A stretch of 64,000 nt of DNA from Rhizaria sp. SCN 62-66 (taxonomy: Eukaryota). This document shows positions 853-63,600 of the stretch, one piece after another. The position numbers and the translations under genes are program-made. Under the pieces are notes generated by a model that saw only the letters and a list, made by a program, of their open reading frames with translations, searched no databases and was not told the DNA's origin. The DNA is taken from positions 1 to 64,000 of the forward strand of contig MEDY01000094.1 in NCBI GenBank assembly GCA_001724265.1, given 5' to 3'. Position 1 is the stretch's first letter. Each line of letters opens with the position of its first letter.

Positions 853-1391
853 AGCAAACTGAAGCTCACAAGCTCGTAAGGCAAACTACACTTCAAACAT
901 TGGTGCTTTCTGCTTACGTTGCTGGAGCTTTCATATTTTTGACAAGATAACAAGATATAACTGACAAGATAGATGTATAGATTTAGTTGTAGTTCAGTAC
1001 TTACGTGTTTTAAAAATGGCTGATTGTGATTGGTAACTAAGTCAGCTCAGACAGGGTCACTTAAAGTACTTCCTGTTAGTATGTGTGTCGTATTATTAGT
1101 CGGAATTGTAACTCGTGAATAAGATCTATAATATACTGCAAAGTGATAATACTAAGAATACACACCGACTATTCCAACGCACGATGATGTCTTTGCCATG
1201 GCACGCAATGTTTCCGGTTCGTGACCAAGGTTAACGGCGACCAAGCTACCACTCAAAAGTGAGCTTCGAAACTTGAACGCAGCACTCTCAAACGGTATGT
1301 ACAATCGTCACAATTGAACACCACGGGCTTAACAAGTTTACTAACATGTATTCTTTTTATCACTCTTATTATATTTCAAAAGAGAGCTTTT

Positions 1392-3629
1392 ATGTCTTAC
1401 AATAGCGAATCGTCAAACTCAACGGCCGACCCCACAAACTTCAGCCCCTTTGGTCCCCCCTTGACCGAGGCCCGTCTGCCTTCCTGGGCCACTGAGCTTG
1501 CCCGCGAGGCAGAGTCGTCATCCGCATAGTCGCCATCTCTTAACGACCCGCCAAAGTTTCAGCCCGTGTCTCTCATGGGTCCCATCCCGGCCTCTTACCG
1601 CCCGCCTCGCACGATCCTGCCTTCCTCCAGCTCCTCCTCCGTCTCCGCGAGTGCAAGCAGTAACAGCGTACCACACGCGTTTGCTGCGACGTCTACGGGC
1701 TATGACGCGACCCCAACTGTGGCCCCGGCAGCGCAACACGCTGTTGCAGCGCGCCGGACGACTCCTGTCGACTCGAAGCCATTCAACTCCGCATCCTCCT
1801 CTGCGTCTGCGGCCGCGGCCGCTGCGGCTGCTGCCCAGAGGCGCGATCTCTTCTCCTGGAACTCTGTGTCGACGCGTCCGCCACTATTTACCAACCCTAA
1901 GGCGTTTTTGCACCCCCACGCCTACTCGGACACCGCTGTCGGCGCGCGACGCGGCGCCGCAGCGAGCTCTCTTACCCGGCCCGCCGCTCCCACCAACACA
2001 AACCGTGACGGCAGCAGCAGCGGCAGTGGCAGTGGCAGTAGTGCTAACGCTGGAGCGAGGCAAAGGCAGTCGGTGTTGCCTGCATCCCGCGCCCGCAACA
2101 AGACACACACTCCCGTTCACACTGCTCCTGCTGCTCCTGCTGCTGCAGCACCTGTGACTACAATTGCAAAGTCAGCGGCTGCGACTCCGAGCAAAGCCCA
2201 CAGCGGCCACGCCGGCGCGAGCGCGAGTGCGATGACATACGGCGGCGGTGGCGGCGGCGCTGGCGACGACGACGATGACGAGGACGACGCGGAACTCGCC
2301 ATGCACCACATGTTTCACTCAGGCGGCGCCGTCCCCCAGAGCGGCGCCATCCTCTCGAGCCAGCCCGCGCACAGCGGCGGTCCTCACGGCGCCGCTGGCT
2401 CTGGGGCAGCGGACCTCGACGACGACCCCGACGTGGGCATCGCGGCGCTCACAGCCGCCGCCGCCGCCGCCGCCGCCGCCTGCACGGTCACGGCTGGCGT
2501 TGCGCTCAAGACGCTGGGCGGCGGCACTGCCACACTCATCCACAAAACCACGCCCTGCGGCAACAACGCCGCCGCCGTGCACGCGGCCGCGGACGCGCTC
2601 GGCGACGCGAGAGCGAGCCCTGCTGTGAACGCTGCGGGGACCGGTGCGACTGCCGCGGCCGGGGCGGGGGCTTATGGTGTGAGTGGTGATGCCGCGAACC
2701 GGCTGCCGTACCGGTTCTCCGCGCCGGAGCTGGTCGATGAGCGTCCGCTGTACTTGCCCTCGGAGCTCGACGGCGGGTTCGTCGACCGCCGCAACGCGCG
2801 CGCACAGCAGCAACAGAGCAGCCACAGCAACCGCAACAGCGGCGCGAACCAGTTCGACTACAACGCGTACAGCAACGCCGGCAGCAACAGCAACAGCACC
2901 ATTGGCGTTCGTGGCAGCGGTATTTCGAGTATCTTCGGCTGGAACGGTCTGACGAGCAGTGCAAATGACCGGGACAGCTTGGCCGCCAGTGGCGCTCAGA
3001 CGAGCGGCGTCGCGGTCGCTGGCCGCCGCGCCGGCTCTGCGAAGTCCGCAAGCGCTACATCAAACGCAGCCCCCGATTTTAGTCAAAGTCAAAGCCAGAG
3101 CCAGGGCCAGGGCCAGGGCAATGCGCGGCAGTCCGCAGCCGCCGCAGCCGCAGCCGCCGCGGCGGAGGCTGCGCGCGCGGAGGCCGCGAAGGCCGAGGCT
3201 GAGGACGCGGGCACGCTGGCGCTGATCGCGGCGGCCGAGCGCGCGGCTGCCGCGTCCCGGGGCTTGCTGGCTCAGCGGCTGCAGGCGCTCGAGGCCAAGC
3301 ACCACGTCGCGCTCGTCCCGACCGCCGCGGGCAGGGGCGGGGCGGGCACTGCTGCTGCGGCGACGGCGGCGGCGGAAACTGTAGGGCCGGAGACGAGCAG
3401 TGAGGAGCCGGAACAGAAGAAGGCTGCGTACGGCAGGCGCAGCGGCCCTGGCACTGGCGGAAGCACTGGCGTGGGCGCGGGCACGCATGCTGGCGTCTCT
3501 CGGAGGGCCGCTGCGGCAAGTTTCAAGGCTGGACATGGAGACAGTGACGACGGTGATGATGATAAGGAGCCTGAGCTTGCGTTCCTGCGCAACAAGGGCC
3601 TCGTCACCAAGAGTCCAGTTCGGCGCTAA
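1392..3629 (+). CDS. Hypothetical Ala/Ser/Gly-rich protein (~745 aa if the in-frame TAG at 1527-1529 is read as sense)
   Basis: ATG 1392 (MSYNSES...) sits at the AT-to-GC transition. The ORFs 1314-1529 and 1566-3629 are in the same frame, separated only by TAG 1527-1529. Ends TAA. A probable 5'UTR intron donor GTATGT lies at 1295. An alternative start at ATG 1575 cannot be excluded. Confidence 0.6.
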
Positions 3630-3823: not shown

Positions 3824-4880
3824 TCAATACCCATCCCAGAGGTCCCCACCGACGCCGCTACCCCGCGCGTACTCACCGAGGCTATTCCCATCACGATCCA
3901 CGCCGTAGTAATCGCTATTGTAACTCTCGACCAAATGCGAGATGTCGTGCTCGTTCACGTGCACCTCGAGCCCCGTGTCCTTGATGACGTACTCGCACGC
4001 CACCTTGGCGAACTCGGACGACTTGGTCAGCGTTGCACGACGCACAACACTCGCAGCCCCCGCCGCGCCGTCGCCGTAGTCGTCGCGCGCGCCGGAGGTC
4101 TGCGGCCCGCTGAGGGCGATCTGCGTGGTCACGGCGTGCGTCCAGCCGACGCCGTACACGACCTCGGCCTCAGCCTCTGCCTGGGCCTCCGCCTCCGCTG
4201 CGGTCAGTCCGCCGGTCTCAGCCTCGTCCTTGGCCTCCGAGGCAGCATGTGCGGCGGCGGCGCCATTAGCGCGGACGTTGCCCACGCTTGCACTCGTAGC
4301 GCGCCAGGCGCTCCTGCCGCCGCGCCCGCCAGCCTTAGCGTATGACGAAGCTGGGGACAAAGACGCGGACGACGGCGCTGAGTTGGTGACGACGGCAGTG
4401 GCGTTGTACTCAACGGCGAGGGTCTTCAGCACAGTTGCCAGGAGCTGCAGCAGCCGCTGCCGCTGCAAGCCGAGGTCGGCAGACGACATCGCTGCTGTGT
4501 GTTGTTGTTGCTGTTGCTGATGCTGTTGACTCGCTTTGCTGGCGTAGATGCTGCCGGGGATGTACGCACCCTCAGCCGTGTACGCCGCACTGCGTGGCGC
4601 CGGGGGAGCGCCAGCAGCAGTGTAAGCAGCACCGCCTCGTCCCCCTGCTAAGGCTGACGCTGCCGTGCTGGCGTTGGGGCCGCTGAGCAAGTTCGCGAGC
4701 CCGTCGACGAGGACCACGGTGGCGTCTGCCTCGGCAACCGTGTCTACCAGCTCCTCGGTCAAAAGGGCGGTGAGTGCGGCGACCGTCGGCGCGGGCAAGC
4801 AGTGGATGCGCGCGAAGGTGCGGCTCAGGATGTAGTCGAGGCTCGACTTGTCGACAAGGTTGTCGTCATCGTTGTCATCG

Positions 4881-4957
<77 letters not shown>

Positions 4958-5698
4958 GTCCTCGTTGTCGTCCTTGTAGGGGCCAGCGCCACGGGCATCA
5001 CGCTGCTGCTGCTGTTCACAGCCTTGCTCACCGTCGCTCATCTTGCGTTGCTCCTGAGCATCGCGCCGTTGCTCACGGTCACTCGCGTGTCGCTGCTCAC
5101 GGTCAGCGCGTCTCTGCTCACGGTCGCTCTCGTGTCTCGCGACGAGCTCCCCGACCATCGCCGTCGCCAGTACCGTGCTGAACCCACTGCCCACGCCCAG
5201 GTCCACGTACATCACAGACGCGCCCAGCCCGCCGCAACGCCGTGGCAGCGCGGCCCGAACGGCGAGCGAATGTAGCGCGCGCGTCTTGCCGCTGCCGCGC
5301 GGCCCGAGCAGCTCGTAGAGCCCCGGCGTGAGGGCGAGCGCGCGCGGGAGACACAGGCGCGCCAGGGCCAGCGGGCGCAGCGCGGCGGGCGGGGAGAAGA
5401 GCGGGAGCGCGCGTGGGGGCCTAGGGGGCCGTGGGACGGCGAGCTGGGAAGATAGGGACACGGGCGCGGGCGCGGCGGGGTACAGAGAGATCGCGGGGCG
5501 GAGTGACGGACAGAGCGTTAGTGCGGCCTGCGAAACGAGCTCGGATACATCGTCGAAAGAGATGTCAAGGAGCTCAACAAGCTCAATCTAAGATGCAAAG
5601 AGGAGCTGGCTTGCGTCTGTGATACGAGCATATCGGAGCTTGGCTTTGAGGGTTGGAGAGGTCTTGAGACGCTCGACGGGCAGCGTAATCGAGGTCAT
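3824..5698 (-). CDS. RAD51B: RAD51 paralogue, RAD51B-like (624 aa with the in-frame TAG at 5590-5588 read through)
   Basis: Walker A GPRGSGKT, Walker B VVLVDG, LAVEYNATAVVTN, and a C-terminal GVGWTHAVTTQIAL...RRATLTKS...YVIKDTGL typical of RAD51B. The upstream in-frame segment from ATG 5698 (MTSITLPVERLKTSPTLKAKLRYARITDASQLLFAS*IELVELLDISFDDVSELV) resembles the RAD51B N-terminal helical domain. Ends TGA. Confidence 0.75.
4881..4955. repeat. (TCA)25 trinucleotide microsatellite encoding poly-Asp in the RAD51B-like gene
   Basis: Perfect TCA run read directly; it is GAT codons on the minus strand. Confidence 0.95.
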
Positions 5699-6325
5699 CC
5701 GCGGGGATGAGGGTTGCGCAGACAGATCCTGTGGGACTTGGAAGCTGAAATAAGAAGATAATTTGGAATAATCCGTGAAAGTGCGTCTTTCAAGTTATAC
5801 GAATCTCAGAAGCTCGTTTTGAGGTCCCATGACATCAGGATGGGCTCCGTTGCTGCGCGTCTGACTGGGCGCCAAAACGCTGGCCATCCAAATCCGCAGC
5901 TGAGTACAGTGATAGAACATAGTAACCCATACATTTAAGTTGAACTGTACTACTTTCAAATTATCAGCAACTTGAATTAAACGCCATCGTGCTATTATTG
6001 ATTGAGACCCAAATGCTATCGAGATATGCGCGAAATACACTTCGCCACCACATGTTGGTTTACAGTGACTTGCTCACAGTCTGTGGCGGCGAGCAGGGAC
6101 TGGAATCGAGCGAGCCCGCGACCCGAGTCGGGGCTGCGGGGGAGATGAGTTGGAGCACACTCGGGCCGTGTGGGAGACTGAGTATTGCGTTGCGTGTTTA
6201 CAATTGAGATGTGTATTCTAAGTAATTTGATTTTGGGCGAGACATGTGCTTGTTATACCTGTGTGACTGCGTGATGTGACGGCCGCCTCACCCGCTAACT
6301 CGCCCTGCGCTTTTTTTCTTTGTAG

Positions 6326-6729
6326 ATGTCTGACGACAAAGTTGAGACTATTGGTATCAAGGTCCGCTCTGCCCGCGGCGAGGAGGTACGTTAAGCTAAA
6401 CATTCATTGATGTCGCTTTCTATATTGTTGCTGTTTCCTTGTTCTACACCCGTCCGCTCCCCGAACTCACTCTCATGTTCCCGCCCTGCCTCTTTTCCCT
6501 CTCGCCCCGCTTCTCATTGTCTTCCCAGGTTCACTTCAAGGTGAAGCCCCAGACCAAGATGGACAAGGTCCTCAAGGCGTTCTGCGAGAAGGTCGACGTC
6601 GACGTGTCTTCTGTCCGTCTCACCTTCGACGGCCGCCGCGTTGAGGCCACCTCGACTCCCGCCGACCTCGGCCTCGAGAACGGCGACGTCATTGACATCG
6701 TCGAGCAGCAGGTCGGTGGCGCCTTCTAA
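6326..6729 (+). CDS. SUMO: SUMO (small ubiquitin-like modifier); exons 6326-6385 and 6529-6729
   Basis: Spliced product MSDDKVETIGIKVRSARGEE|VHFKVKPQTKMDKVLKAFCEK...RLTFDGRRV...TPADLGLENGDVIDIVEQQVGG-AF with the di-Gly motif. Phase-0 intron GTACGT...CCCAG at 6386-6528. Ends TAA. Confidence 0.93.
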
Positions 6730-13535: not shown

Positions 13536-16500
13536 ATGAGTCAGACCCCCCCTCAGTCAAAGGGCTTGTGCGTCATGTCTCGGTCACTCAATGTGGGTAT
13601 GGCCGCGCTGGCCGCAGTATCTGCCACTTTACTGTGGCTGGCGTACTTGAACGCGTCCAGTTTGGCTCCCAACGAATGCGCTATGACGTACTTTGACGGC
13701 TCTCTGCACTCTCTCCCCAAGGCGCCCTTGCACCCACAGTACTCGCTGCAGGAGTTCAAGCTGAGCTCAGCGGCCTCTAGCGCAGACAACGTTATATCTC
13801 CACTCTCTATTGCGGCACTTTCTACCCCAATTCGCGAAGAGTACGTCGTGTTCGTGCCAGGCAACGGCGGACACGCCTTTCAGTCACGCTCACTCGCCAC
13901 TCGCATCTTGCATCTCCAGCGTGACCTGGCCACCTCCACGCACACTGCGCGCTCGCTTAAGTCCTCGGACGCCGACATTGAGCTTATCCGCACGTACCTG
14001 ACGAACGGACTTGCCCCTCATCTCTCTATCGCCGCGCAGGCCGACGGAAACGCGGGTAATACCACCTCAGTCGCGCGTGCTGACGCAGCAGACGTACCTC
14101 GTCTTCTGCCTGCTACGGTCACAATCCCCAGTCGCGTACACATCCGCGTCTTTGCGCTGCATTTTCGAGAGGAGCTGACTGCGTTATCGTCCCGCAAAGC
14201 GCTCGAACAAGCCCACTACACGGCGCAGTGTCTGCAGTATCTCACCACTCTGGCAGAAAAAAACAGCGTGGGCATCTCTGTCGTGGGGCACTCGATGGGC
14301 GGCGTTGTCGCGCTAACCGCTGCCAGTCTCCTCGACAACAGCACCAGCAGTATGAGCGCCTTGGAGAATGCCCCCTCGAGCTCTCTGTTTGCGCCGCTGC
14401 ACACTATTGTGACCGTGGGCGCCCCCACCGCGGCCCCTGTTGCGGGCGTCGACCCCGACGCGGCCGCTCTCTACGCCGATGCGCTCGCCGCAGTGCCGCG
14501 GCGCGCGTTTCTCGCCATTGCTGGCGGCGAGCGCGACCTGCAGTCGCCTCCGGAGCTCTCGCTGACTCCGGCTGCCACTGCTGCTGCCGCTGCTGCTGCT
14601 GCTGCTGCGACGACCGGTGCAAGGCTGTCGATATTCGCGTCCCCGGGCCCCACACTCGCCTCCGCGTCGGCGTCGGCATCGTCGCAGTGGCCCGCGGCCG
14701 CCGCGCCCGTTGACCACCAGTGTCTCGCGTGGTGCGCGCAGGTCACCGCTCCGCTGGCCGCCGTGCTTGTGCGCCGTGCAGTCCTCACAACAGCCACCGA
14801 GGGCGGCTCAACCGGGAGGGAGCCGTTGGTGCGGTCTGCGGCGGCGATGGCTGTCACTGGCGCGGCCGACGCCGTCTCTACCACAACCTCTGCTGCTGCT
14901 GCTGTGTTTCCTGTTGCTGCTGCTGCTGCGCCTGAGGCTGCTTCTCAGTCTCAGTCCCTGCGCTCAGTCGCTGACGTTGTCGCGGGGGCAGCCCGCGCCA
15001 TGTCGACCGCGGCGAAGACTGTTGTTCTCATTCCAGAACTCTCGCCAGCAACTCTCAAGTCATCCGCGCTGCTGAGCTCTGACGGTGGGAAAGCCGTCGG
15101 ACTGCATGCAGTGGCCCTGGGCCAGCTCCCAGCAACGAAGACTGTCGCTATGACCGTAGTTTCATCGGTGGTGGCGACTGGGCTCCGTCTCTGTCGCACT
15201 CAAAAGACTCAAGCCGCCGCCACTGCGAGTGATCAGCCTCTGAGCAAGGTCTGCCGTGTTGTGCCGACAACTGTGGCGTCTCTTCCCGCGGCGCGCGTGC
15301 CTCTCGGGATTGTGGGATGGGACAACACAGAGCTTTCTCCTGCTCGCGCGCTCACTGATGCCGACAACAACGCCAGCGGCCGCTACGCCGACGCCGAAGC
15401 AGCTGCAAGTACGACTATTCTTGTTGCGAGCTCTGCAGACGTTGCAACAACGCTGACCGCGCTCAATAATCACGCGAAGGTCTGTGCTGGCTGCAAGGAC
15501 ACTCTCGAGCTCGTGTTGCCCTCTGTCTCCATGTCACTGCTATCTCGTTCGCTTACGAATGCTGAGAGTGTTGCGCGGATTCTTGATCCGCAGCAAAACA
15601 GCTTTGTCGCGCTTGCTGAAAGGTTTGGTGTAACGTCAGACAAAATGCAACACAGCCAGCATATTTGGGCACTGCTATCAGAGCCTCTCAACAATAGTAT
15701 TGCGCTACGTGGTCCCATATTGCGCGCATCAGCTGCGAGCGTGGGCATTGACGCCGTGCTTGTCCGCCGTCGCCGCGGGCACCGCGCCTTGGGGTCAGAC
15801 GGCCTTGAACGGCGTGTGCTGCCTGAAGTCGCAGCGTCGGGACTCGCGGCCACGCTGCGGCTGCAGGGGTTGCCCGTGCCTGTCTCCGCGCTGACCGCAC
15901 TCGAGCCGGTTGACATTGCTCCGGCTCGCAATAACAGCGATTTTGTACGCGGGCACAGTTAGGGGCTCGCGTTTGCCTGGGACGGTCTTTCGCCTGCGTG
16001 GCATTCTCGTGAATACGCCGCACGCTCCGGCAATGGTCGCTCTAGCTCCAGGTTTCCTGTCATTCTTAGCGCGTTTACGCCCGCCAGCGGCTCAGTGGCT
16101 CCTGCGCCCTGGTCCTCAGTGCCCGTGCCCGCGCCTGTGCTGCTGGCGTGCTCGCTGCCGGCCGACTACAAGCACAACGCCACGTCCCCCGCCATGATGG
16201 TGCGGCTGCAGTGCCCGCTGGCGCAGCAGCCGCGCTGGGCGTTGTCGGCGCGCGACATGTCAACCTACGGCGCGGACCATGTGATTCGGGCCGAGCACGC
16301 GCTGCGCAGCAAGGCCGAGGTCGCGGTCTCCCCGCTACACACCCGCCACGCCGCCGGCGCCGCGTTGGAGCGCGCGGCCGGCAGCGGCAACTATTACACT
16401 GCGCTGACGTGGGAGCAGTCGAAGATGGGCGACGCCGTTGATCTCGCCACGATGCCGCGAAGTTACGTGGCGTTCAGCCAGAGTAAGACCACGGGGGTCA

Positions 16501-19743: not shown

Positions 19744-22700
19744 TTAGATGAGCACAACAGTCTCGCCCTGCACCATGGTCTTGACAATGATCTCGTTGCC
19801 GCGCTTAAACGTGACGACGAGCAGCTTCACGCGGTCAGGCAAGTGGCCCGGCAGCATGACGAGCTTGTTGTACCACTCGCGCTCACTGGCGTACCGGCTG
19901 GCAGCCTCGGACGACAGCACCGAAGCCACCGTCGCGGGCGGCGTGTTGACCACAGTGACCTTGCCCTTGTCCTTGTCGCCGGATGAGCGCGGACGGCGCA
20001 GCGTCTTGACCCAGCGCGACGGGCGGAAGGTGTCGACGGGGTACGTGGCGGCAGTCTCGCCGCTGTCGTTGTCAACGTCCTCCTCCTCGGACGAAGCAGC
20101 AGCCGCAGCAGCAGGTTGCTGACTCTTGCTCTTGGTAACAGAGGTCCTGTCGTCCTTGGTGGAGTTGGGAACGACGGTGTTGCCGCGCGGCGAGAGCGCG
20201 AGCTGCTCGGCGAGCGCGTACGTAACGTCGTACCATGCACCGCGCGTACCGTAGTGCGCCTGGATCACACGAGAGCTGCTCATGAGCGCACGCATACGCA
20301 GCGCGCAGAGCTTGGCGTCGGCGAGACTGCGCGCGGGGAAGTGGCGCTTGCTCAGGTCCGTGTCGGCACTGGAGCCAGTGCCCTTGCCTAGCATTGAGAG
20401 CACGACGCGGGTCTGCATCGGGCTCTTCTTGTTCTTACCGGGGACCTCCTGAGGGAAGACGTCAACCATGCGAGCGAGACGCACGTTGGCGCGCACAAAG
20501 CGCTTGGCGGCCTCATTGCTAGAAGAGCCACTGCCCTCGCGCGCGAGCATGCGAGCCGCGGCGCGGGCGTGGACAACAAGAACACGCACGTCGGTGACGA
20601 CGACCAGGAGGTCGGAGTCACTCATCTCGTTCTCGTCGTTGGCCGCCTTATCGGAAACATCAGAGGTAGTGCGGAGCGGGAAAGCAAGCAGAACACGCTC
20701 GCGCTCCATCTTGGCCCTGTAGCGACGCATCTTCGTCAGCAGGTCCTTCTTCTTCTTGCCCAGAGTCTTGTCGGCCTCGGTGCCAGTGGCCGAAGTAATC
20801 TCGAGCTCAAGCGCGCGCAGAGTCGCCGCGAGATCATCGTTGTCTCCGTCCTCGAGCGCCTTGACGGTCGTCTCGCTGATACCGAGGTTCTCGGTGATGC
20901 CGAGGCCGAGCGAGCGCGTGAGGCCAGTGACCTCGTACGCGTCGACGACGTCGCACTCGTCCTCTTCCGGGGGCGGGACCTGGTGGATGACGTACTGCGC
21001 CAGCGCGTCGCGCTCCTGGAACACAGTCAGCGCGCCGTTGTTGGCGATGAAACGAGGGAGACGGCGCCGTGTGCGCACGATCTCATCCTCGCCCAGCGCG
21101 CCCAGCAGACTGAACGTGGCACCAACACCCTTGAGCGTCGTGGTCACCATGTCGACCGCGCCGGACGCGGTCTTGGTCACCACGCCAGTCAGGCCCTTAC
21201 CGAGGCCCTTGAAGAAGCCGCCGACGCCGCCCTGACGCGCGCCCTTGAGCGGGTCCGCCACGATGCCCTTAAGACCGGAGAAGATACCATGTCCGAGCGA
21301 CTTAGCACCCTCAAGCAGACCGTCGCCGGCGTGCTTCACCTGCTTGCGGCCGCGCGCGCGGCGCTTAGCCTGGAACTCGGCGTCCATGGTCAGCGCGGCA
21401 ACGCCGGAGCCTGCGGAGCCGGTGATCTTGGCCGCGGCACCGAACACGCCCGTGGTGACGGACGTGATGAGAGACGCGGAGCCCTTGGCGATACCGGTAC
21501 CGAAATCCTTGGGCGACGACACGAGACCCTGAGCGGGAGCGTAGAAGAAGTCCTTGACACCCGCACCAACGCCTGAGACGAGGGACACGGGGTTACCGAG
21601 GAACTCGACGGAGCCGAGGATCTTGTAACCCTGGCCGATACCCTGCGTCACGTAGAACTGCACGATGGGCTGGAGCAGCGTCGCGACGTCGCCGTACGCG
21701 TCCTGCACGATGAGCGAGTTGAGGCACACCGGCGCAGCGTCGATGCTGCCAAGCACGCCGGACGCGGCGTTGAACACGGCCTGGATCGGATTGAAGGCCA
21801 TGGCCTCGCTACCAACACGGAGGTCGGGGTTGGCGCGGAACGTGAGGTACAGCTGCAGCGGCTGGATGTGAAGCAGCGAGAAGTAGAACTGTGCCGCGCT
21901 GCTGTGGCCCTCGGCGTGGTACATGTTGCGCTTGTCCAGCAGCATGTACTGCGTCGGGTCGGGCTCTGACACGAGGCGGGGCAAGATGTCGTTGACGACG
22001 GACAGAAGCTGCCAGATAAGAGATTCGTCGATCGTCACCTCAATCTCCTGCACCAGCACGGTCGCGTACTTGAAGACCTGAACGGGGTAGTCGGCTGCGG
22101 TCTTGGTGCGGCTGAGGCCGATGTGAATGAACGGCTTGCCCGACGCAATGGCGTCCTCGGAAGGACCGAAGACGATGGCCTCGGCGTCCGGGCCCGCGGT
22201 GACGATGCTGCTCTGGTGGTCAACCTGCATCGCCTGCACCGAAAGCTCAATCGCGCTGGTGGCGATTGAGTCAGTCAGCGAGACCACTACGCCCTCGATG
22301 GAAATGTAGAGCACTTCGCTCGCGCCACCACCGCCGGCATTGGCGCTGTCAACGAGGGACAGACCGACATGGTCGACGGCGAGTCGCACCTCCATCGACT
22401 CGCGGTCGATCAGGGGCTTCGCCATGGTGAGCTGGCACGTCGCCAGGACGCGCACCGGTGCCACAGGCAAGGCGAGCGCAGCCGCAGCAGAGACAGCAGC
22501 GTCAGCCTTAGCCTTGGTCGCAGCAAGAGCCGCCTCGAGCTGCGTGCTCTCGGCAGGGAGCATAGACGAAGACATCAACGACGACATCGAGATCGCGCTC
22601 GGCGCGCCTTCGCTGACGCGTCGTAGGTTCTGTGCGTTGGCCTTCTGCAGCGCGAGCGACGCCTGGACGCCCTCAAGGCCGGTGTGGAGACGCAGCGAGC

Positions 22701-25700
22701 CAGTCGAGTCGGACGCCTTGGCCTTCATCTTGGCCTCCTTGAACGCGCGCTCGATGTCCTCCTTCGTGACACCCATCACCGGCGGCGCCGTGTACGGCAC
22801 GGGCGCCGGCGTGAGCTCGGACGCGAGCCCGACGCGCGAGAGCGCCTTGGCGTTGCGCGGGGACAGCGACGAGTCCTCGACCGCGAAGTGCCATGTGGGG
22901 CCCGGCAGCAGAGTACGCGAGTCGCGCATCAGCGCGTCGAAGACCAGCGTCTCCTGCACAAGCTCGCCAGCCTTGGCCTTCTTGGCGGCCGCGGCGGTCG
23001 CAGCAGCAGCCTTGGCGGCAGCGGCAGCGTCCTCCTCAGGAGTGGTTGCGAGCGCGACGGTGTGGAGCGGGATGAGCACCTCGCCGCACGAGACGAACGC
23101 CGTCTCGGTGCTGAAAGGCAGGTGCGCGACCGAGGCCGTGCCCGTGGTCAGGCCGACGCCCGCGATCGTGGCCGCGGTCGCCATGGCGCGCTGCTCGCCC
23201 GACGGCGTCTCGGGCTCGCCCGTCGTGCCGCTGGGGGACGCCGCGGAGGCGTCCGCAGCAGTCGCCGCAGCAGTGGCCTTAGCGGCGGCCGAGTTGGGCA
23301 GCTCGCGCACCGTCTCGGTGAGGATGTGCAGCGACAGCACAGCGGCCGAGGATGGGACCTCCTCGTTGGCCATGGCGCGCAGCGCGGGCTGCACCAAGGA
23401 CAGCGGGACGGTGAAGGTGAGCTCGATGCTCTCGCCCTCGGGGACCAGCTCGACGCCACGCGTGCCGGGGGGCAGCACGGCCGTCTTCTCTTTGTTCTTG
23501 TCCTCGGCCTTCTTGGCCGCGTCGGCAGCAGCCGCGGAGCCCGCAGTGGGAGACGCGGGGGCAGCAGAAGCGGGAGTGAGACTGGAGCTGTTGGCAACCG
23601 CGCCCTCAGCGGAGGCGCCGTCAGCAGCGACAGGGCTGCTGGGGTTGTGCGTGCTCGTGCTGGGGTTATTGGGGTCCTCGTCGTCGAGCTCATCGATCAA
23701 GTTGCGCTTGATGACGATGGAGCCGGGCATCACGCCAGTGCACGGCACGAGCGTGAGCGGCAGCTGCGAGCCGACGCCGCCCAGGTTGGGGTGCAGTGAC
23801 GCGATGCGCATCAGGGCGCCCATTCTCGACGTTGCGCCACTGCCGGAGACAGCAGCGTCAGCAGCGATCTTGTTGATGTCGCGGCGGCCCCTAGCGTCCT
23901 CGAGCGCGGCCACACCGCTGTTGGTGAGCTGGATCTCGAAGAGGTCGATGAGCTGCGTGTGGCCGTTGCACTGCACGAGACCGCGGACCTTGACGGGGCG
24001 CCACGCCTTGGACAGCGTCTTGCCGGCGTCGCGCAGGCAGCCGAGGATGTGCTCCTGGCTCACCTGCACGGACTGGAGGCGCACCGTCAGTACGTACTCC
24101 TGACGCAGCTTGGCGGCGTCGGCGCGGCGCTTCTCCGCAGCGAGGGCGAGCGACTTGATGAGCGCATCAAGGTGCTGCTGCGCCTTCTTGACAGCGCCGG
24201 AAGAGAGCTTAGGAGCCGGGGCGGCAGCCGTGCTCGCGTTGTTGGCGGTGCCGCGGCGAGGCTGCATCGAGCCGGAGTTCGAAGGAACAAGCGCACCACT
24301 GCTGTTGTTGTTGCTCGCAGCGGCAGCGTTGCTGCTGCGAGGCGCAGGCGCGTCGGGCTCGTCAGCCGCAGAAGACGACGAGCAGCAGCTGAAGAAACCG
24401 CCCTTCTTCTTGGGCTTCTCAGCCGCCTTTGCGTTGGCACTTGCGTTCGCAGCATTGCTGCTGCCGCGCGCGCTCGCGAGGGAAGACGACGAAGCAGCGT
24501 TCTCGTCAGCCTCAAACACGACACTGAGGCCAGCGCTCGAAGGCGCCACAGTGCCAAGGGACGAGCTGGTGTTGTTGCCAACAGAGCTGCTGCCCATACC
24601 GGCAATAGCGGCGTTAACGGTCGCCTCATCCGCAAGGATCTGCAGCGTGTTGAGGTCGATCTTGCCCACGTCGAGGTCGCGCAGCTGGCTGGCGAACTTC
24701 TCGGTGAGCTGAGCGAGCAGCGACACCTGGTGCGCGAGGTCGGCCTGGAGCTCGTGCAGGATCAGCGCCTGGCGCGTGAGCTCGTTGGGCGCGAAACCGA
24801 TGGCAATGTTGAGCTGGCCGTGGAGACGCTTGTTCTGGCGCACAGCGTGCAGCTGCAGCCAGCGCGTCATGAACTTGACGGGGCACATGTCCCACGGGTC
24901 GTCGCTCGTCTCGGAGACCTCGTCGAACACGTCGGCAATGTGAGCAGCCGGCAACGGGGTGGGCTTCTCGGTCTTCTTAGCGGGAGCGGCAATAGTGACA
25001 GACTTGCCCTTACCCTTGCCCTTCTTCTCGTGCTTGTGGTCATTGCCGTCCTTGCCCTCCTCGTGGTCCTCGTCAGCATCGAGGTCGTCCTCGTCGCCCT
25101 CGGGCACCGCACCAAGGCCAAAGGCAACGGCACCGGACTTCTTGCCGGAGTCGCTGCCACCGCGGGCACCGAGCAGGCCAGTGACGCCGGCCGTGATCTT
25201 GGAGCTGGCAGCGCTCTGCACGCCCGCGGCAGAGTACATCGCGGCAACACGTGCGGCGTCGTATGCGGCCTGGCCGCGGGCAATGCACGAGAGGTTGCCG
25301 ACAATGACGCCACCGAGGAACGTGTCGGAAGTGACCTTGTTCTTATGGAAGACGGCAATCTTGAGGGCAGCCTTGTTCAGGGTCGAGAACGCCTTCTCCG
25401 AGAGAGCGAGAGAAACTTCGCCATCGGCCTCAGCCTCCTCAGCAGCAGCCTCGGCCTCAGCCGCGGAGCGACGAATAGCAGCCAGAAGGTCGCCGTCAAG
25501 CTTGAAGAAGAGCTCGTTGTTCCAGTACGGGTTGAGTGTATGCGCCGCAATGTCAGTCTTGTACGACTGGTTGTGCAGCGTGAGCACGGCGTAGCAGTCG
25601 GAGAGACCGTCCATACCGCCCGCAGTCAGCCAGCGCGCCTCGACGACGCGCACGCAGAGGTACGCCACGTCGGACACGCACAGAGGCTGCAGGTGCGTCG

Positions 25701-39084: not shown

Positions 39085-40084
39085 TGCAAAAGTGGAGAAC
39101 GAGAGAAAGAGCGCGGGATAACGCTGGAGGGAGAGTTCTTAGTAAACGCAGTCAGTTGGATCGTGCGTTAGGGGGAGCGGGGGTGCGGCAGAAGCAAAAA
39201 AGCTATGACGCAAGGTAGCACTACTGTGTTAAACGCAGACAAGAGGTTGGATCTCTTGTAAACACTCAAACAGCGGTGGGGAAGGGCTAAAGAAACCAAG
39301 GTTGGACGTGGCTCCTTGTTAAGCTCTGCGCGGCGGGGGGGAGGGGACATTAGACAGAAAATAGAGACGCATGAGAAGATAAAAAAGGCATACGCACAAG
39401 ATCTAGCGCAGCAAATAAGTCGAAATATCCTTGCAAATGAAAAACCAGCTCATGCAATGAGTAGAGACGTCCCAGCAGACTTGTCTCTTTAAGCGGAAGC
39501 TCAGCACAGCACTCCGCGCGTAGCCATTCAAAATGCATTCGAATGTAGGCACTTGCTCTCATGCATTGTTGCCAATAATTACACAAATATAAAGAACAAT
39601 GAAAGACCTCGGAGGGTTCTCCCAGTGGAAATCCCCGATGACCCTCGCACAGCGCGCAATTCACCTGCGAGTCAAGACAAGATTCAGTCCTGGACCGGTC
39701 TGTCTCGCGGAGAGGGGGAGTACGACACAGAAAATGACCGTGAGACAATCATTTTAGCGAACCAGTCGGCCACTCAACCATGTGGTGTCGAATCGCGAGC
39801 ATATCCAGCGCCACCAACCAATCGTGCAAGTGCATACAATCTCGTGAATCTGTTCTTACTATCGCTAATCTATATTCACAGCTTATCGAGCATGCTGCAG
39901 ATTTCGATAAGACCATAAACTCGCTTCATATCTTCTCCTGCTGAGCTCACTTCTTAAACCCCTCTCTGTCGTTCATTTCGACCTCTGATGCGCTGACCCG
40001 TTACACTCCAGTCCGCTCCAGACGTCTCGAGGAGGGTTCTTGCTCGCCTTTCTTGCTTTTGTTGGTGCCTTTTTAGCTTTCCCG

Positions 40085-59324: not shown

Positions 59325-59950
59325 ATGAAGCCCTCTACTTTGGCTACTCTCCTCGTTTTTGTTTTGGCTGCTGTGATGCAGGACGTGTGGCGCGCCAACA
59401 ACCTTGCTGCCCAGGCGCAGATCCGTCAAGAAGAGACCGCAGTCGCCGCAGGCACCTCTACCCCCGGTGTCGTGTCCTCTGTGTCCAACTACCTTGACGC
59501 CAGCTCTGGCCAGCGCGTGCACGTTGCCTTCTGCTCCAGCTGCGGCTTCGGCAACAAGTACATCGAGCTCAAGAGCGCGATCGAGAACTCGGTGCCGGGC
59601 ATCGAGGTCTCCGGCTCCACCTACCCTCTCCCGCTCTGGAAGACCGCCGTGTCTTGGCTGCTTTGGCTTGCCGCGCCGCTCATCTACTTTGGCCACGAGA
59701 CCTTCTTTGCTGCCACCAACCTCCCCATGCCCGAAATTGTCAAGAAGATCAAGGTACGTTCTCGCATTGCATTCCTATGAAGCAACCACTTATGTGGAGA
59801 ATACCTCGATCATATCATCTCTCATTGCACGTTGGTAGATGTATTGTGTATTGCACTCTGCTTATTTTTTTATCGTCTCTTTCTATGCTATTTTCTTATC
59901 ACGACCTCTTGCTACCTTCTCTGTTGTTCTCTTCGTTCCCCGAATCGCCC

Positions 59951-59989
<39 letters not shown>

Positions 59990-60186
59990 GTTACGGCTAC
60001 CAGGCCGCGATGGCTGGCTTCTACCTTGGCACAATGCTGTCCTCGCGCTTTACCAACTCCGGCGCGTTCGAAGTCGCTTTCGACGGCGCGCTGCTCTTCT
60101 CGCGCCTCGCCACCGGCGCCTTCCCTGTGCCCGCCGACATCGCAGGTCTCGTCAAGGAGGGCCTCGCCGCGGGGGGGCACGCGTGA
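59325..60186 (+). CDS. SELENOT: Selenoprotein T-like (Rdx family) protein with CxxC; exons 59325-59753 and 59989-60186
   Basis: Signal-like N-terminus, VHVAFCSSCGF, IEVSGSTYP, and C-terminal SGAFEVAFDGALLFSRLATGAFP. Phase-0 intron GTACGT...ACAG. Ends TGA. Confidence 0.85.
59953..59986. repeat. (AC)17 microsatellite abutting the SelT intron acceptor
   Basis: Perfect AC run read directly, immediately followed by AG at 59987-59988. Confidence 0.95.
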
Positions 60187-60687: not shown

Positions 60688-63600
60688 TTAGCGACGACCG
60701 GTCTTGCCATTCTTCGCTGGCGTCCCAAACGCGGAGCTCCCCGCGCCCGCACCGACACCAACGCCGGCGCCCGCAGCGAAACCGCCCGCGCCGCCCTTGT
60801 GCGGTGTCGGCGGCAGCGACCGGCCCCCGCGGCCCGCGGCCCCCGCCCCCGACGCAGCCGCCGCCGCCGCCGCCTCCGCCTCGGCCGCGGCGGCCGCCTG
60901 CTCCTCGGCAACAACAGCTGCCGCGGCCGCCGCGGCCGCCGCGCCGCCGCCGGTCTTGCCCAGCTCTGCAAGCCCGCGGACGTGGAGGCGCAGCTCGCGG
61001 CGCGCGTCGAGCAGCGTCGAGGCCGCGCCCCAGCCGCCCGCCGCCAGACGCGCCGCAGCATAGAGGCGCGCCACAGCGGGCGCCAATGCGGCAACGGCGG
61101 CCGCGGGCGACGGCGCGGCCGCGGCGCGAACGGCGGCGGCCGCGGACAGGGACGCCAGCGCGCGAGCCGTGTTCGTCAGCAAAGGCAGCGGCGGCGCGGC
61201 AGAGGCAGAGGCGACAGAGACGGCGGCGGCAGAGGAAGAGGAGGAGAAAGGCAGAGAGCGGCGGTGCGGCGAGTGGCTCCGAGCAAGATTGTGCGGGTTG
61301 GAGTTGCCGCCGCCGCTGCCGCTGCCACTGCCGCTGAAGAGCGAGGTGACGGTGTTATGGGGCCACGGCCACGTGTCGCTGAAGCTCTCGTCCCCGCCAA
61401 TCGCGGCAGCAGCGTTCGCGGCGGCGGAGGCTATGTCAGCGGCGGCCGCAGAGACCACGTCGAAGTGACCGTGGGCCAAAAGGTGCGACTAAGACCGTGA
61501 AGTGTACGACTGCGGGCGCGACGACGGCCGCGAGCGTTGACCGTGAGCAGCAGAGTGACCGTGGGCCCCGTGATAGTGATGATGAGGGTGATGCATATGC
61601 TGCTGCTGCTGTTGCTGCAAGAGCAGCTGCGCCTGCATCTGCGGCAGCGCGGCGCGGTCGAGCAGCCCCGCGCTGGCGCTCTCCAGCGCCGCCAGCGTGC
61701 TCGCCAGCGCGCCCCGCGGCGGCGCCAGCGGGGCCCGGTGCACCGCCGGCAGCGCGGCCACGGAGCACTGCTGCGCGCACGAGAGGATCCAGCGCTCCAG
61801 CTCCGCCGCGGTCTCCGCGGCCGCCGCGGCGGCACCCTGGAACTGCTGCTGGTGTTGTTGTTGTTCCAGTTGCGGCGGCGCTGACTGGTCCCACAAGTCG
61901 CCCGCCAGCCCAGCGCCCGCGTTGGCGCCGGAGACCGCGGAGGCCTCGTCGTCAGCAGCGGCGGCCTGGAGCCTGGAGACGACCTCGGCGACGAGCGCGC
62001 GCGAGGCCGCGATCTCGGACGCGGCGGCGCTCTCCTCTGCGGGCGCCAGCGCGGTAGCGGCCGAGATGAGCGCGCTGAGGCAGCCCACCAGCACGGCCAA
62101 CGCGGGCGCCGCGGCAGAGGCTACGGCCGAGTCCGCGGCCGAGAGCGAGGGCAGCGCAGCCGCGACGGGCACAGGAGTCGCGGAGGTCGCGCTGTGAGCG
62201 CGCAGTGCGTGGGGGGGCGGCGGCGGGGCGGCGCCGGAGAGAGTGCTGGTGTCGATGCCGACGAGCAGCGTCGACACCACGTGCGAGTGCGCGCCAGTCG
62301 CACCGGCGCCGGCGCCGCTGCCGCTGTAGGCGACGCGCATGGGCTGGCCGCTGTGGCCGTGCGACTGCGAGTGCGCGTGCGACAGAGCAAGAGTGAGAGC
62401 CAGACCCGACGACTGCTGCTGCTGCTGCTGGCCAGTCTGCTGCCCATGTCGCATCTGCTGTTGCTGTTGCTGCAGCTTGACTGTGGTGAAGGCCGACTGC
62501 ACGAACGCCCTCGCGGCAGCGGGCGCGGGCAGCTCAGTCACGTACGCCAGCGCCATCGCCGCCGCTACGGCGCGCTTCTGCGCCTTGTACGCCAACACGC
62601 CGGCGAGATCGTCAGTGTTGACGTCTGCGTCCGCGTTACCGGCGCCGTCGCCGTCGCCGTCGTCGTCGCTGTCGCTGTCCGAGGAAGGCGGCGCGCCGGG
62701 CCCCGCCGCCGCGAGCGCGGCCGCCGAGGCCGCCGTGACGACGCACGCGCCCGGGAGCGCCCACGCCGGCGCCGGTCCGCCTGCTGCGGCCGCAGCGGCG
62801 GCGGCCGCGGAGGCCGGATCGCACAGCGCTGACGCAACCGTGACTGCAGCTTCGGACGCGGCCAGCGCGAGCGGCAGCGCAAGGGCCCACAGCCGCTCGG
62901 CGCTCGCCTCGTCCGCAGCAGCAGCAGCGGCGGCGGCGGCAGCGGCACTGGCGGAAGTGGAAGCACTGGCATGGTTCGGGTTGGCGTTGCCGTTGGTGTT
63001 TATTGTCGCGCCGCTCATGTCGGTGGTAAGGTCGCCGCCCCAGTCGCCCGAGGCCGCGGCCGCAGCGGCGCGCGAGTACTCGCCCAGCGAGGCGGGCAGG
63101 TCGCTGCCTTCGACGGCGGCAAGCCGGGCAGCGGCGGACGCGGCGGCCGCCTGGGCCGAGACCGCGGCGGCGGTGGCCGCGGCGAGGCGGCCGAGCGCGC
63201 CGGAGCCCGCGCTGCCGCAGCAGTCGTCGCCGTCAGGCGAGCCGTCGCCGTTGCCGCTGTTGTTACTGTTGTTGTTGTTGCTGCTGCTGAGCTCAAAGTG
63301 GGAGCGCGTATCACGGTGCAACAGCGACTGCGAGTGAACATGCGACTGCGGCTGTGCGGGCGAGACTGGGTCAGAGCCGAGCAGCGCTGCGAGCGTGTTG
63401 ACGGTCTCCACCGCGGCGGCCACGGTGCGCGGCAGCTGCCAAAGCAACAGGTTCGGCTCGTCGCCCCCGCAGTCAGCGCCCTTGCCGGCGGCACTCGGGG
63501 ACTGGCTGCCGTTCGCCACGGCAACGGGCGACGGCGAGTGCGACAGCCTGGGATCGTTGTCGCCTGATAGGGCGAATGAGGCCGATAAGTCGCGCACCAC

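What the first reader, a model, noticed from the sequence alone, without database searches (positions are those of the whole stretch)
5461..5698. In-frame TAG inside the conserved N-terminal domain of the RAD51B-like gene
From ATG 5698 the frame reads MTSITLPVERLKTSPTLKAKLRYARITDASQLLFAS*IELVELLDISFDDVSELVSQAALTLCP and runs straight into the ATPase ORF. By eye this matches the RAD51B N-terminal pattern (S/T-x-x-E-L-x-x-L-L-D/G). The TAG falls at a position that, from my recollection of homologues, is usually Pro or polar, which fits Gln better than Leu. The nearest donor-like GT (GTATCA) would give a 38-nt intron that shifts the frame and deletes aligned residues. This is the best single site because it lies in a folded domain.
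Basis: partly seen in the sequence, partly recalled or inferred. Interest (0 to 1): 0.8.

Follow-up and report, generated by a model that had tools for sequence, protein, structure and literature searches.

The report
In-frame TAG inside RAD51B-like gene
A DNA-repair gene of an uncultured, GC-rich wastewater eukaryote carries a TAG "stop" codon inside a folded domain, probably because this organism translates TAG as an amino acid.

Summary
On the minus strand, ATG 5698 opens a frame that meets one TAG (5590-5588) at codon 37. The frame then runs on for 587 codons through a RAD51/RadA ATPase core to TGA 3826-3824.

The 36 codons before the TAG are real coding sequence:
- Their codon score is reached by 0.5% of intergenic windows.
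- They match the N-terminus of a RAD51B orthologue colinearly (BLASTP E 1e-6).
- They add about 25 bits to a profile of the N-terminal domain.
- AlphaFold2 folds residues 1-60 at pLDDT 81-97. The fold lies 1.8-2.1 A from the N-terminal domain of human RAD51B, and the TAG is the first residue of helix 3.

No intron like the window's eight can remove the TAG. An independent contig from another study carries it unchanged.

Three further genes in the window have a single in-frame TAG. None has an in-frame TAA or TGA, and 0 of 16 genes end in TAG.

Best reading (about 0.55): UAG is translated in this organism. The amino acid is open.

No RNA contig covers the site, no tRNA(CUA) was found, and only 64 kb could be examined.

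The parts
3824..5698 (-). RAD51B-like gene read through the TAG: 624 codons from ATG 5698-5696 to TGA 3826-3824, no intron found
   Evidence: Pfam Rad51 E 1.5e-4, just under the cutoff. NCBIfam RadA E 1.4e-9. PDB sequence hits RadA 3.9e-5 and RAD51B 9.5e-5.
5588..5590 (-). The in-frame TAG, codon 37. In the model it is the first residue of helix 3 of the N-terminal domain.
   Evidence: Unchanged in X4 contig 5295-6553.
5591..5698 (-). 36 codons upstream of the TAG, from the start codon through helices 1 and 2 (residues 15-23 and 29-34)
   Evidence: Codon score 0.359. BLASTP against RAD51B orthologue P0007: E 1e-6, residues 7-36 against 5-34. 15.0 bits alone against the N-domain profile.
5504..5587 (-). 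Rest of the N-terminal helix-hairpin-helix domain (residues 38-65; helices 37-44 and 48-62)
   Evidence: pLDDT 92-97. (rmsd 1.8-2.1 A to the human RAD51B N-domain chains 8faz_B and 8ouy_A).
5282..5305 (-). Walker A motif GPRGSGKT (residues 132-139). It lies upstream of the first in-frame ATG after the TAG (Met in GASVMYVD).
   Evidence: G137 and K138 invariant.
4875..4957 (-). (GAT)n run that encodes a long poly-Asp insert in the ATPase core
5588..5625 (-). The 38-nt GTATCA...CTTAG stretch considered as a mini-intron and rejected
1527..1529 (+). Second in-frame TAG: codon 46 after ATG 1392 of a low-complexity gene that ends at TAA 3629
   Evidence: ATG-to-TAG codon score 0.534; 0.12% of intergenic windows reach it.
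15960..15962 (+). Third in-frame TAG. It joins an 815-codon ORF (PGAP1 lipase domain) directly to a 930-codon ORF in the same frame.
   Evidence: Unchanged in X3 and X4 contigs.
61489..61491 (-). Fourth in-frame TAG. It joins an 836-codon ORF (open at its 5' end) to a 266-codon ORF in the same frame. The downstream part has GC 0.76 and codon score 0.55.

Best explanation
The gene is an intact RAD51B-type recombination mediator, and its mRNA carries a UAG at codon 37 that the ribosome translates. The organism, an intron-poor, GC-rich eukaryote known only from bioreactor and wastewater metagenomes, reads UAG as a rare sense codon and terminates at UAA, less often at UGA. UAG may be fully reassigned, or it may be efficiently suppressed by a tRNA with anticodon CUA.

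Shown: the TAG is in the DNA of two samples, it is in frame, and it lies inside a folded, homologous domain. No usual intron can remove it. Three other genes show the same pattern. No gene in the window ends in TAG.

Inferred: that UAG is present in the mature mRNA, that it is decoded, and by what. The amino acid is not settled; the one informative column favours Glu over Gln and argues against Leu.
For: 1. Coding continuity. The same frame runs on both sides of the TAG. The upstream 36 codons have coding-type codon usage and no stop other than the TAG.

2. Homology across the TAG. A phmmer search of 1.84 billion representatives gave P0006 (E 3.4e-19, 46% identity) in one stretch, query 8-182 against 3-163. 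P0007 matched query 6-72 against 4-70. P0007 is a RAD51B orthologue: 4e-57 to human RAD51B, next RAD51C at 3.8e-26. A profile built from the 26 homologues, without the query, scores the read-through N-terminus at 53.4 bits. The part after the TAG alone scores 28.6 bits.

3. Structure. AlphaFold2 gives pLDDT 81-97 for residues 1-60 and four helices, two on each side of the TAG. Foldseek's 10 best rows are all RAD51-family entries; the best is 9q2a_B (RAD51B), and the two N-domain-only RAD51B chains fit at rmsd 1.8 and 2.1 A.

4. No standard-code rescue. After the TAG the first in-frame Met lies behind the Walker A motif.

5. No usual intron. The eight introns in the window have GTACG[TC] or GTATGT donors and are 107-235 nt long. 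No GTA[CA]G[TC] donor lies on the minus strand between 5210 and 7925.

6. The same pattern occurs elsewhere in the window. Single in-frame TAGs lie at 1527, 15960 and 61489, and no in-frame TAA or TGA was found in a gene's sense frame.

7. The terminators of the 16 genes are TAA 12, TGA 4 and TAG 0. TAG makes up 21.6% of all stop trinucleotides in the window, which gives about 0.02 for 0 of 16 by my arithmetic.

8. Independent contigs carry the TAGs at 5588 and 15960 unchanged.
Against: - No RNA contig covers 5588-5590. The polyA-RNA contig of X5 ends at 5457, so splicing, editing or a downstream transcript start are not excluded directly.
- No tRNA gene of any kind lies in the window, and no eRF1 gene could be examined.
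- Only 4 TAGs occur in roughly 17,000 codons. The 6464-codon VPS13-like ORF has none. That is far rarer than in described UAG-sense codes.
- Only the RAD51B site has homology on both sides. The PGAP1 and low-complexity cases rest on frame continuity. Codon scores next to two of the TAGs are weak: PGAP1 0.17 and -0.03, and -0.64 upstream of the 61489 TAG.
- In this codon usage, 77% of sense codons one substitution away from a stop lead to TAG. 'All four are TAG' is therefore also what random nonsense mutations would give (about 0.35).
- Glu (GAG) in the closest relatives is one substitution from TAG.
- The sample of 16 terminators is small.
Confidence: 0.55

Rival explanations
1. Nonsense allele or young pseudogene. 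A single GAG-to-TAG (or CAG-to-TAG) substitution has knocked out the RAD51B-like gene. UAG is an ordinary stop and only the 36-residue peptide is made. The other in-frame TAGs are likewise recent nonsense mutations or 5' leader sequence.
For: The closest homologues have Glu at the column, and GAG is one step from TAG. 77% of one-step nonsense paths in this codon usage give TAG. The gene is very divergent and full of low-complexity inserts. RAD51 paralogues are dispensable in some lineages (general knowledge).
Against: Four of 16 genes in 64 kb would each carry exactly one nonsense codon, with no frameshift and no second stop. These include 587, 930 and 266 open codons downstream. The TAGs at 5588 and 15960 are identical in contigs from other studies and years. 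Walker A and the C-terminal VYGVGWTHAVTT motif shared with P0006 are intact. No gene ends in TAG.
Confidence: 0.15
2. Gene-specific programmed read-through. UAG is a normal stop genome-wide, but in a few low-abundance genes a leaky UAG near the start throttles expression. Near-cognate tRNAs insert Gln, Tyr or Lys at low efficiency.
For: Two of the four TAGs lie close to the start (codons 37 and 46). In-frame TAGs are very rare (4 in about 17,000 codons). RAD51 paralogues are needed in small amounts (general knowledge).
Against: No known read-through context follows the TAGs; the next codons are ATT, TCG, GGG and TCG. No local RNA structure is stronger than shuffled sequence, with z from -0.22 to +1.59. 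This reading does not explain 0 of 16 TAG terminators. The PGAP1 and 61489 TAGs lie deep inside long genes.
Confidence: 0.1
3. The TAG never reaches the ribosome in frame. Either an unconventional intron removes it, or transcription and translation start downstream at a non-AUG codon. One such intron would be the 38-nt GTATCA..CTTAG combined with the out-of-frame ATG at 5631-5629, which would give M-L joined to IELVELL.
For: The TAG ends a pyrimidine-rich stretch (ctcctctttgcatcttag) that looks like an acceptor. Removing the 38 nt puts ATG 5631 in frame with the ATPase ORF. The RNA contig of X5 stops at 5457, so no RNA is seen over the site (a contig end proves nothing).
Against: None of the 8 introns in the window resembles it. 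Their donors are GTACG[TC] or GTATGT, always with G at position 5, and their lengths are 107-235 nt. The mini-intron model loses helices 1-2 and scores 28.5 bits against 53.4 bits for read-through. The deleted 36 codons have coding-type usage and homology. The other in-frame GT..AG options also lack the donor consensus (90 nt from GTCGAG, 213 nt from GTATAA at 5800). There is no in-frame ATG before Walker A.
Confidence: 0.08
4. Restorative RNA editing. The A of UAG is deaminated to inosine, so the codon is read as UGG (Trp). Filamentous ascomycetes correct premature UAG codons this way during sexual development.
For: Fungal A-to-I editing prefers U at -1 and hairpin loops, and restores UAG-interrupted genes. 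I saw this only in search-listing abstracts (PMC11156358, PMC10776026). In the minimum-energy folds, 3 of the 4 UAGs lie in hairpin loops, and the fourth lies in an unpaired internal stretch. A recombination gene could be stage-specific.
Against: The folds are no more stable than shuffled sequence. Trp occurs in 0 of 26 homologues at this column and scores 51.9 bits against 55.9 for Glu. The organism has a ciliary DM10 gene and a RAD51B-type paralogue, so it is not a filamentous ascomycete (inference). Editing does not explain the lack of TAG terminators.
Confidence: 0.07

Closest known systems
Nuclear codes in which UAG alone is a sense codon and UAA stays the main stop: rhizarian exLh (UAG = Leu) and the fornicate Iotanema spirale (UAG = Gln) (PMC5304391, passages read); phyllopharyngean ciliates (UAG = Leu or Gln) (PMC11687900, abstract read)
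   Same: In-frame UAG only, with no in-frame UAA or UGA. UAA is the dominant terminator and UAG is not seen as a terminator. A tRNA(CUA) is the expected decoder.
   Different: There UAG is abundant (384 in-frame UAGs in 71 exLh genes) and its meaning was fixed from many conserved columns. Here there are 4 UAGs in about 17,000 codons and one informative column, which favours Glu and has no Leu. No tRNA, eRF1 or mRNA evidence is available. The genome is GC-rich and the lineage is unknown.
Oligohymenophorea sp. PL0344, a ciliate with UAG = Glu and UAA = Lys (PMC10553269, abstract read). From recall: UAR = Glu in peritrich ciliates. From the search-listing abstract of PMC12153298: UAR = Glu in Blastocrithidia.
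   Same: UAG read as Glu would match the residue most common at the RAD51B column (15 of 26).
   Different: In those codes UAA is reassigned as well. Here UAA ends 12 of 16 genes. The window also does not look like those lineages: GC is about 62% and introns are 107-235 nt.
Human RAD51B (RAD51 homolog 2) in the BCDX2 complex (PDB 8faz, 8ouy, 9q2a)
   Same: An N-terminal four-helix domain, then a linker, then a RecA-type ATPase core with Walker A. The N-domain model superposes at 1.8-2.1 A. The closest clean homologue, P0007, is a RAD51B orthologue.
   Different: The protein is 624 residues against about 350. It has a Pro-rich linker and large low-complexity inserts, including a long poly-Asp run. 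It reaches RAD51-family models only over the Walker A region. At the TAG column human RAD51B has Pro (alignment printed).
Restorative A-to-I editing of premature UAG codons in Fusarium and Neurospora (PMC10776026 and PMC11156358, search-listing abstracts only)
   Same: Functional genes interrupted by a single in-frame UAG.
   Different: That editing yields Trp, which is absent from the aligned column. It is known only in filamentous ascomycetes, and there is no supporting RNA structure here.

Membership tests
RAD51 / RadA recombinase superfamily | RecA-type ATPase core with a Walker A motif (GxxxxGKT) in the RAD51-family context | tested here: met
   GPRGSGKT at residues 132-139. NCBIfam RadA E 1.4e-9. 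PDB RadA 3.9e-5 and RAD51B 9.5e-5. Pfam Rad51 E 1.5e-4, 21.5 bits against a cutoff of 22. G137 and K138 are invariant in A2.
RAD51B (RAD51 paralogue B) | N-terminal helix-hairpin-helix domain homologous to that of RAD51B | tested here: met
   Profile of 26 homologues: 53.4 bits. AlphaFold2 pLDDT 81-97. Rmsd 1.8-2.1 A to 8faz_B and 8ouy_A over 67-68 columns, with weak Foldseek E values of 0.015-0.022 for this small domain.
RAD51B (RAD51 paralogue B) | Orthology to RAD51B rather than to RAD51C, XRCC3 or other paralogues | tested here: inconclusive
   The second-best homologue, P0007, hits human RAD51B at 4e-57 against RAD51C at 3.8e-26. The query itself hits RAD51B at 9.5e-5 and XRCC3 at 1.5e-3, but RadA at 3.9e-5. 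No tree was built.
Nuclear genetic code with UAG as a sense codon | In-frame UAGs in several genes at positions aligned with residues of homologues | tested here: inconclusive
   Four in-frame TAGs in 4 of 16 genes. Only the RAD51B site can be aligned with homologues. No homologues were found around the PGAP1 TAG.
Nuclear genetic code with UAG as a sense codon | UAG not used as a terminator; other stops retained | tested here: met
   TAA 12, TGA 4, TAG 0 of 16 genes. The sample is small.
Nuclear genetic code with UAG as a sense codon | A tRNA gene with anticodon CUA | not testable with these tools
   ARAGORN found no tRNA of any kind in the 64-kb window. No genome is held for the window.
Nuclear genetic code with UAG as a sense codon | UAG present in the mature mRNA, neither spliced out nor edited | not testable with these tools
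   No RNA contig covers 5588-5590. X5 ends at 5457, and X5 and X9 have depth 0 over 5596-6051.
Nuclear genetic code with UAG as a sense codon | One consistent amino-acid meaning across many conserved columns | not testable with these tools
   One column only: Glu 15, Pro 3, Gln 1 and Leu 0 of 26.
Spliceosomal intron of this genome (rival for the TAG) | Donor GTA[CT]G[TC] and a length of about 100-240 nt, as in the window's eight introns | tested here: not met
   The candidate is GTATCA and 38 nt. The eight introns are 143, 124, 140, 107, 124, 183 and 235 nt and about 148 nt (XAP5, GTATGT donor; counted by eye from the sequence). The SUMO intron is confirmed by a spliced cDNA contig.

The most novel reading that the evidence does not exclude
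An uncultured, GC-rich, non-ciliate eukaryote from wastewater uses a nuclear code in which UAG alone is reassigned, to glutamate, while UAA and UGA remain stops. The codon is caught at a very early, low-usage stage: about 2 per 10,000 codons, already purged from gene ends. UAG = Glu with UAA kept as a stop is not among the codes I found described (searches; abstracts).
Probability: 0.2. Interest if true: 0.85.

Novelty: new member of a known kind. Interest (0 to 1): 0.62.

Why it matters
Reassignment of UAG alone is known from only a handful of eukaryotic lineages, most of them ciliates. A new case in a GC-rich, intron-poor flagellated eukaryote from wastewater would add an independent origin.

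The codon is so rare here that it could show an early stage of stop-codon capture: UAG already avoided as a terminator, but only just appearing inside genes. That stage is predicted by theory and seldom observed.

There is also a practical consequence. Standard-code gene callers cut these genes. The protein databases hold only the 36-residue stump of this RAD51B-like protein (P0008).

If instead the TAGs are nonsense alleles, the finding is ordinary.

Tried and rejected
Searches for relatives or for more of this organism, all empty:
- Loci related to the RAD51B-like protein or to its relative P0006: metagenome contigs and genome contigs.
- DM10 protein in genome contigs.
- Word-indexed protein searches: N-terminal 200 residues and the PGAP1 region around its TAG gave nothing. 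The N-terminal 70 residues among shorter proteins gave only the window's own 36-residue peptide. Searches scored only the 8000 candidates that shared most words with the query; I suspect, but did not check, that the low-complexity parts crowded the list, so I treat them as weak negatives.
- No whole genome is held for the window. Earlier findings: none.

RNA evidence: no RNA contig covers 5588-5590. Two 151-nt records of X9 stop at 15954 and start at 15967, on either side of the PGAP1 TAG. I read them as a read pair with an unsequenced gap, so they are not evidence. Absence of cover proves nothing.

The N-terminal 79 residues alone against Pfam and PDB sequences gave no meaningful hit. Homology appeared only with the 1.84-billion-protein search and a profile.

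The C-terminal 930 residues of the PGAP1-like gene have no Pfam or PDB relative. That TAG therefore rests on frame continuity only.

Intron alternatives rejected:
- GTACGC 15 nt before the PGAP1 TAG looked like a donor. GTACG[CT] is common inside coding sequence, with many copies inside the VPS13-like ORF. The flank is GC-rich (0.64-0.67). The best acceptor, at 16069, gives 125 nt and breaks the frame.
- GTACAC before the 61489 TAG likewise gives 19 or 77 nt, neither in frame.
- U12-type reading of GTATCA: there is no branch-site match and the length is too short (by eye; consensus recalled).

tRNA scan of the window: none. RNA hairpins around the four UAGs: not better than shuffles.

The argument 'all in-frame stops are TAG, so it is not mutation' is rejected. 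77% of one-step nonsense paths give TAG in this codon usage.

Full report
**What the window is.** The 64-kb window has about 62% GC and carries eukaryotic nuclear genes. These are a SUMO gene, a Twinkle-type primase-helicase, a PGAP1-like lipase, a 6464-codon VPS13-like ORF, UDP-glucose pyrophosphorylase, a cyclin, a Myb protein, a ciliary DM10 protein, XAP5, an LSm protein and an Rdx/SelT-like protein. Genes are intron-poor. I found eight introns. Seven begin GTACG[TC] and one begins GTATGT. Seven are 107-235 nt long, and the XAP5 intron is about 148 nt, counted by eye from the sequence. The SUMO intron (6386-6528) is confirmed by a spliced cDNA contig in run X9. The stretch is held by bioreactor, wastewater and activated-sludge runs. 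No genome is held for it.

**The observation.** On the minus strand, ATG 5698-5696 opens a frame of 36 codons, then TAG at 5590-5588, then 587 more codons to TGA 3826-3824. The part after the TAG contains a RAD51/RadA ATPase core. The Walker A segment GPRGSGKTRALHSLAVRAALPRRCGGLGASVMYVD aligns with RadA and with human RAD51B, XRCC3 and XRCC2 (Pfam Rad51 sits just under its cutoff). The first in-frame Met after the TAG lies behind Walker A. Under the standard code, without splicing, no functional ATPase can be started. The TAG is not an assembly error: a 1259-nt contig of run X4, from another study ten years later, covers 5295-6553 with no difference. It also carries the SUMO intron unspliced, so it behaves as DNA.

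**Are the 36 upstream codons part of the protein?**
- Codon usage. On a codon model trained on ten other coding stretches of the window, the 36 codons score 0.359 in the frame of the TAG, against -1.02 and -0.50 in the other two frames. That value is reached by 0.5% of 1610 intergenic windows and 0.05% of 1940 off-frame windows. It is at the low end (6.6th percentile) of in-frame coding windows.
- Homology. A phmmer search of 1.84 billion representatives with the first 200 residues (TAG read as Gln) gave 28 hits. The best, P0006 (558 aa, 46% identity, E 3.4e-19), aligns in one stretch across the TAG position. It shares the low-complexity style and the C-terminal motif VYGVGWTHAVTT with the query. 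P0007 aligns to query 6-72 and is a RAD51B orthologue: 4e-57 to human RAD51B, next RAD51C at 3.8e-26. The upstream 36-residue peptide alone matches P0007 colinearly, 7-36 against 5-34, at E 1e-6.
- Profile. A profile of the N-terminal domain built from the 26 homologues, without the query, scores the read-through N-terminus at 53.4 bits. The downstream part alone scores 28.6, the upstream part alone 15.0, and the 38-nt-intron model 28.5. One caveat applies: the homologues were found with the read-through query. Most of them, however, matched best on the Walker A region.
- Structure. AlphaFold2 on the 27-row alignment gives pLDDT 81-97 for residues 1-60 and helices at 15-23, 29-34, 37-44 and 48-62. 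The TAG codon is the first residue of helix 3, so the domain has two helices on each side of it. Foldseek's 10 best rows are all RAD51-family entries, and the best is 9q2a_B, which names as RAD51B. The two chains that contain only the RAD51B N-domain superpose at rmsd 1.8 and 2.1 A, with TM 0.77-0.78 normalised by the target. The E values are weak, as expected for about 68 residues.

It ends in a pyrimidine-rich acceptor-like stretch. Together with an out-of-frame ATG at 5631 it would even restore the frame. But it has no G at donor position 5, which all eight real introns have. It is about a third the length of the shortest real intron, and it would delete two helices that are homologous and coding-like. 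No GTA[CA]G[TC] donor lies on the minus strand between 5210 and 7925. Other in-frame GT..AG pairs (90 nt from GTCGAG, 213 nt from GTATAA) also lack the consensus. RNA could not settle this. The polyA-RNA contig of X5 covers 5140-5457 and stops there, and no RNA contig covers 5588-5590.

**The same pattern elsewhere in the window.** Reading TAG through joins long ORFs in three more genes.
- TAG 15960-15962 links an 815-codon ORF with a PGAP1 lipase domain directly to a 930-codon membrane-rich ORF in the same frame. X3 and X4 contigs carry it unchanged.
- TAG 61489-61491 links 836 codons (open at the 5' end) to 266 more. The downstream part has GC 0.76 and coding-type codon usage, whereas true intergenic DNA here has GC 0.34-0.49.
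- TAG 1527-1529 lies 45 codons after ATG 1392 of a low-complexity gene, and the ATG-to-TAG stretch scores 0.534.

None of the TGA or TAA sites that passed the scan lies in the sense frame of a gene as an in-frame stop; the one TAA in a gene's frame is the start of the cyclin intron. The 16 genes end in TAA (12) or TGA (4) and never in TAG, although TAG makes up 21.6% of stop trinucleotides in the window. By my arithmetic that gives about 0.02 for 0 of 16.

**Cautions.**
- Only the RAD51B site has homology on both sides (searches found nothing for PGAP1).
- Codon scores right beside the PGAP1 TAG and upstream of the 61489 TAG are weak.
- The 6464-codon ORF has no TAG.
- In this GC3-rich codon usage, 77% of sense codons one substitution from a stop lead to TAG. 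Random nonsense mutations would therefore also give mostly TAG.

**Which amino acid?** At the aligned column the 26 homologues have Glu 15, Pro 3, and Asp, Ser, Ala, Ile, Thr, Gln, Gly, Asn one each. None has Leu or Trp. Human RAD51B has Pro there (alignment printed). The profile gives E 55.9, Q 54.4, W 51.9 and L 51.6 bits. The position is a variable polar helix cap after a conserved Ser/Thr. It argues against Leu and mildly for Glu over Gln, but it cannot decide. The other three TAGs lie in unalignable sequence.

**Explanation and rivals.** I take translation of UAG as the best reading (0.55), whether by full reassignment or by strong suppression through a tRNA(CUA), with UAA and UGA as stops.
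- Nonsense alleles (0.15) fit the one-step GAG-to-TAG path. But they require four otherwise intact genes in 64 kb to be broken once each, and stably so across samples.
- Gene-specific read-through (0.10) fits the rarity and the two TAGs near gene starts. It lacks any known context or structure and does not explain the terminators.
- Removal by an odd intron or a downstream non-AUG start (0.08) contradicts the intron rules of this genome and the homology.
- Restorative A-to-I editing to UGG (0.07), as in filamentous ascomycetes (abstracts in the listing), would give Trp, which no homologue has. The hairpins that place three UAGs in loops are no better than shuffled sequence.

**Comparison with what is known.** UAG-only reassignment with UAA kept as the main stop is described for the rhizarian exLh (Leu) and for Iotanema (Gln) (PMC5304391, passages read). 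It is also described for phyllopharyngean ciliates (Leu, Gln) (PMC11687900, abstract). UAG = Glu is described together with UAA = Lys in one ciliate (PMC10553269, abstract). The present case would be a further, independent lineage. It has a far lower UAG usage than those, and possibly a meaning (Glu, with UAA still a stop) that I did not find described in my two literature searches. I file it as a new member of a known kind, not yet proven.

**Verdict.** Its preference for Gln is not supported. The step from this site to a changed genetic code is plausible and consistent across the window, but it rests on four codons and sixteen terminators. It needs mRNA reads and the rest of the genome.

Noticed in passing
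window 19744-39138 (-): A single uninterrupted 6464-codon ORF, from ATG 39084 to a TAA stop, with a VPS13-like N-terminal region (Pfam VPS13_N, E 3e-57). It has no intron and no in-frame TAG.
   Followed up: partly
window 4875-4957 (-): A run of about 28 GAT repeats encodes a long poly-Asp insert in the ATPase core of the RAD51B-like protein. Imperfect 21/45-nt repeats next to it (5049-5136) encode SDREQRR-type repeats.
   Followed up: no
window 59325-60186 (+): An Rdx/SelT-like gene with a CSSC redox motif (Cys where selenoprotein T has Sec, from recall). Its 235-nt intron ends in a (CA)n run, and the gene stops at TGA.
   Followed up: partly
window 1297-1385 (+): A possible intron just upstream of ATG 1392 of the low-complexity gene: GTATGT donor, TACTAAC-like box and an AAAAG end. 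If real, that gene may start further upstream than assumed.
   Followed up: no
window 15947-15980 (+): An 8-bp GC-rich stem (ACGCGGGC / GCUCGCGU) encloses the PGAP1 UAG in a 10-nt loop. The local fold is no more stable than shuffled sequence (z -0.22).
   Followed up: partly
window 5699-6325: The RAD51B-like gene and the SUMO gene are divergently oriented. Their start codons are separated by 627 bp of lower-GC DNA (0.49), which looks like a shared bidirectional promoter region.
   Followed up: no
window, all 16 gene ends: TAA ends 12 of 16 genes although third-codon-position GC is about 0.8. The base after TAA is a purine in 11 of 12 cases.
   Followed up: partly
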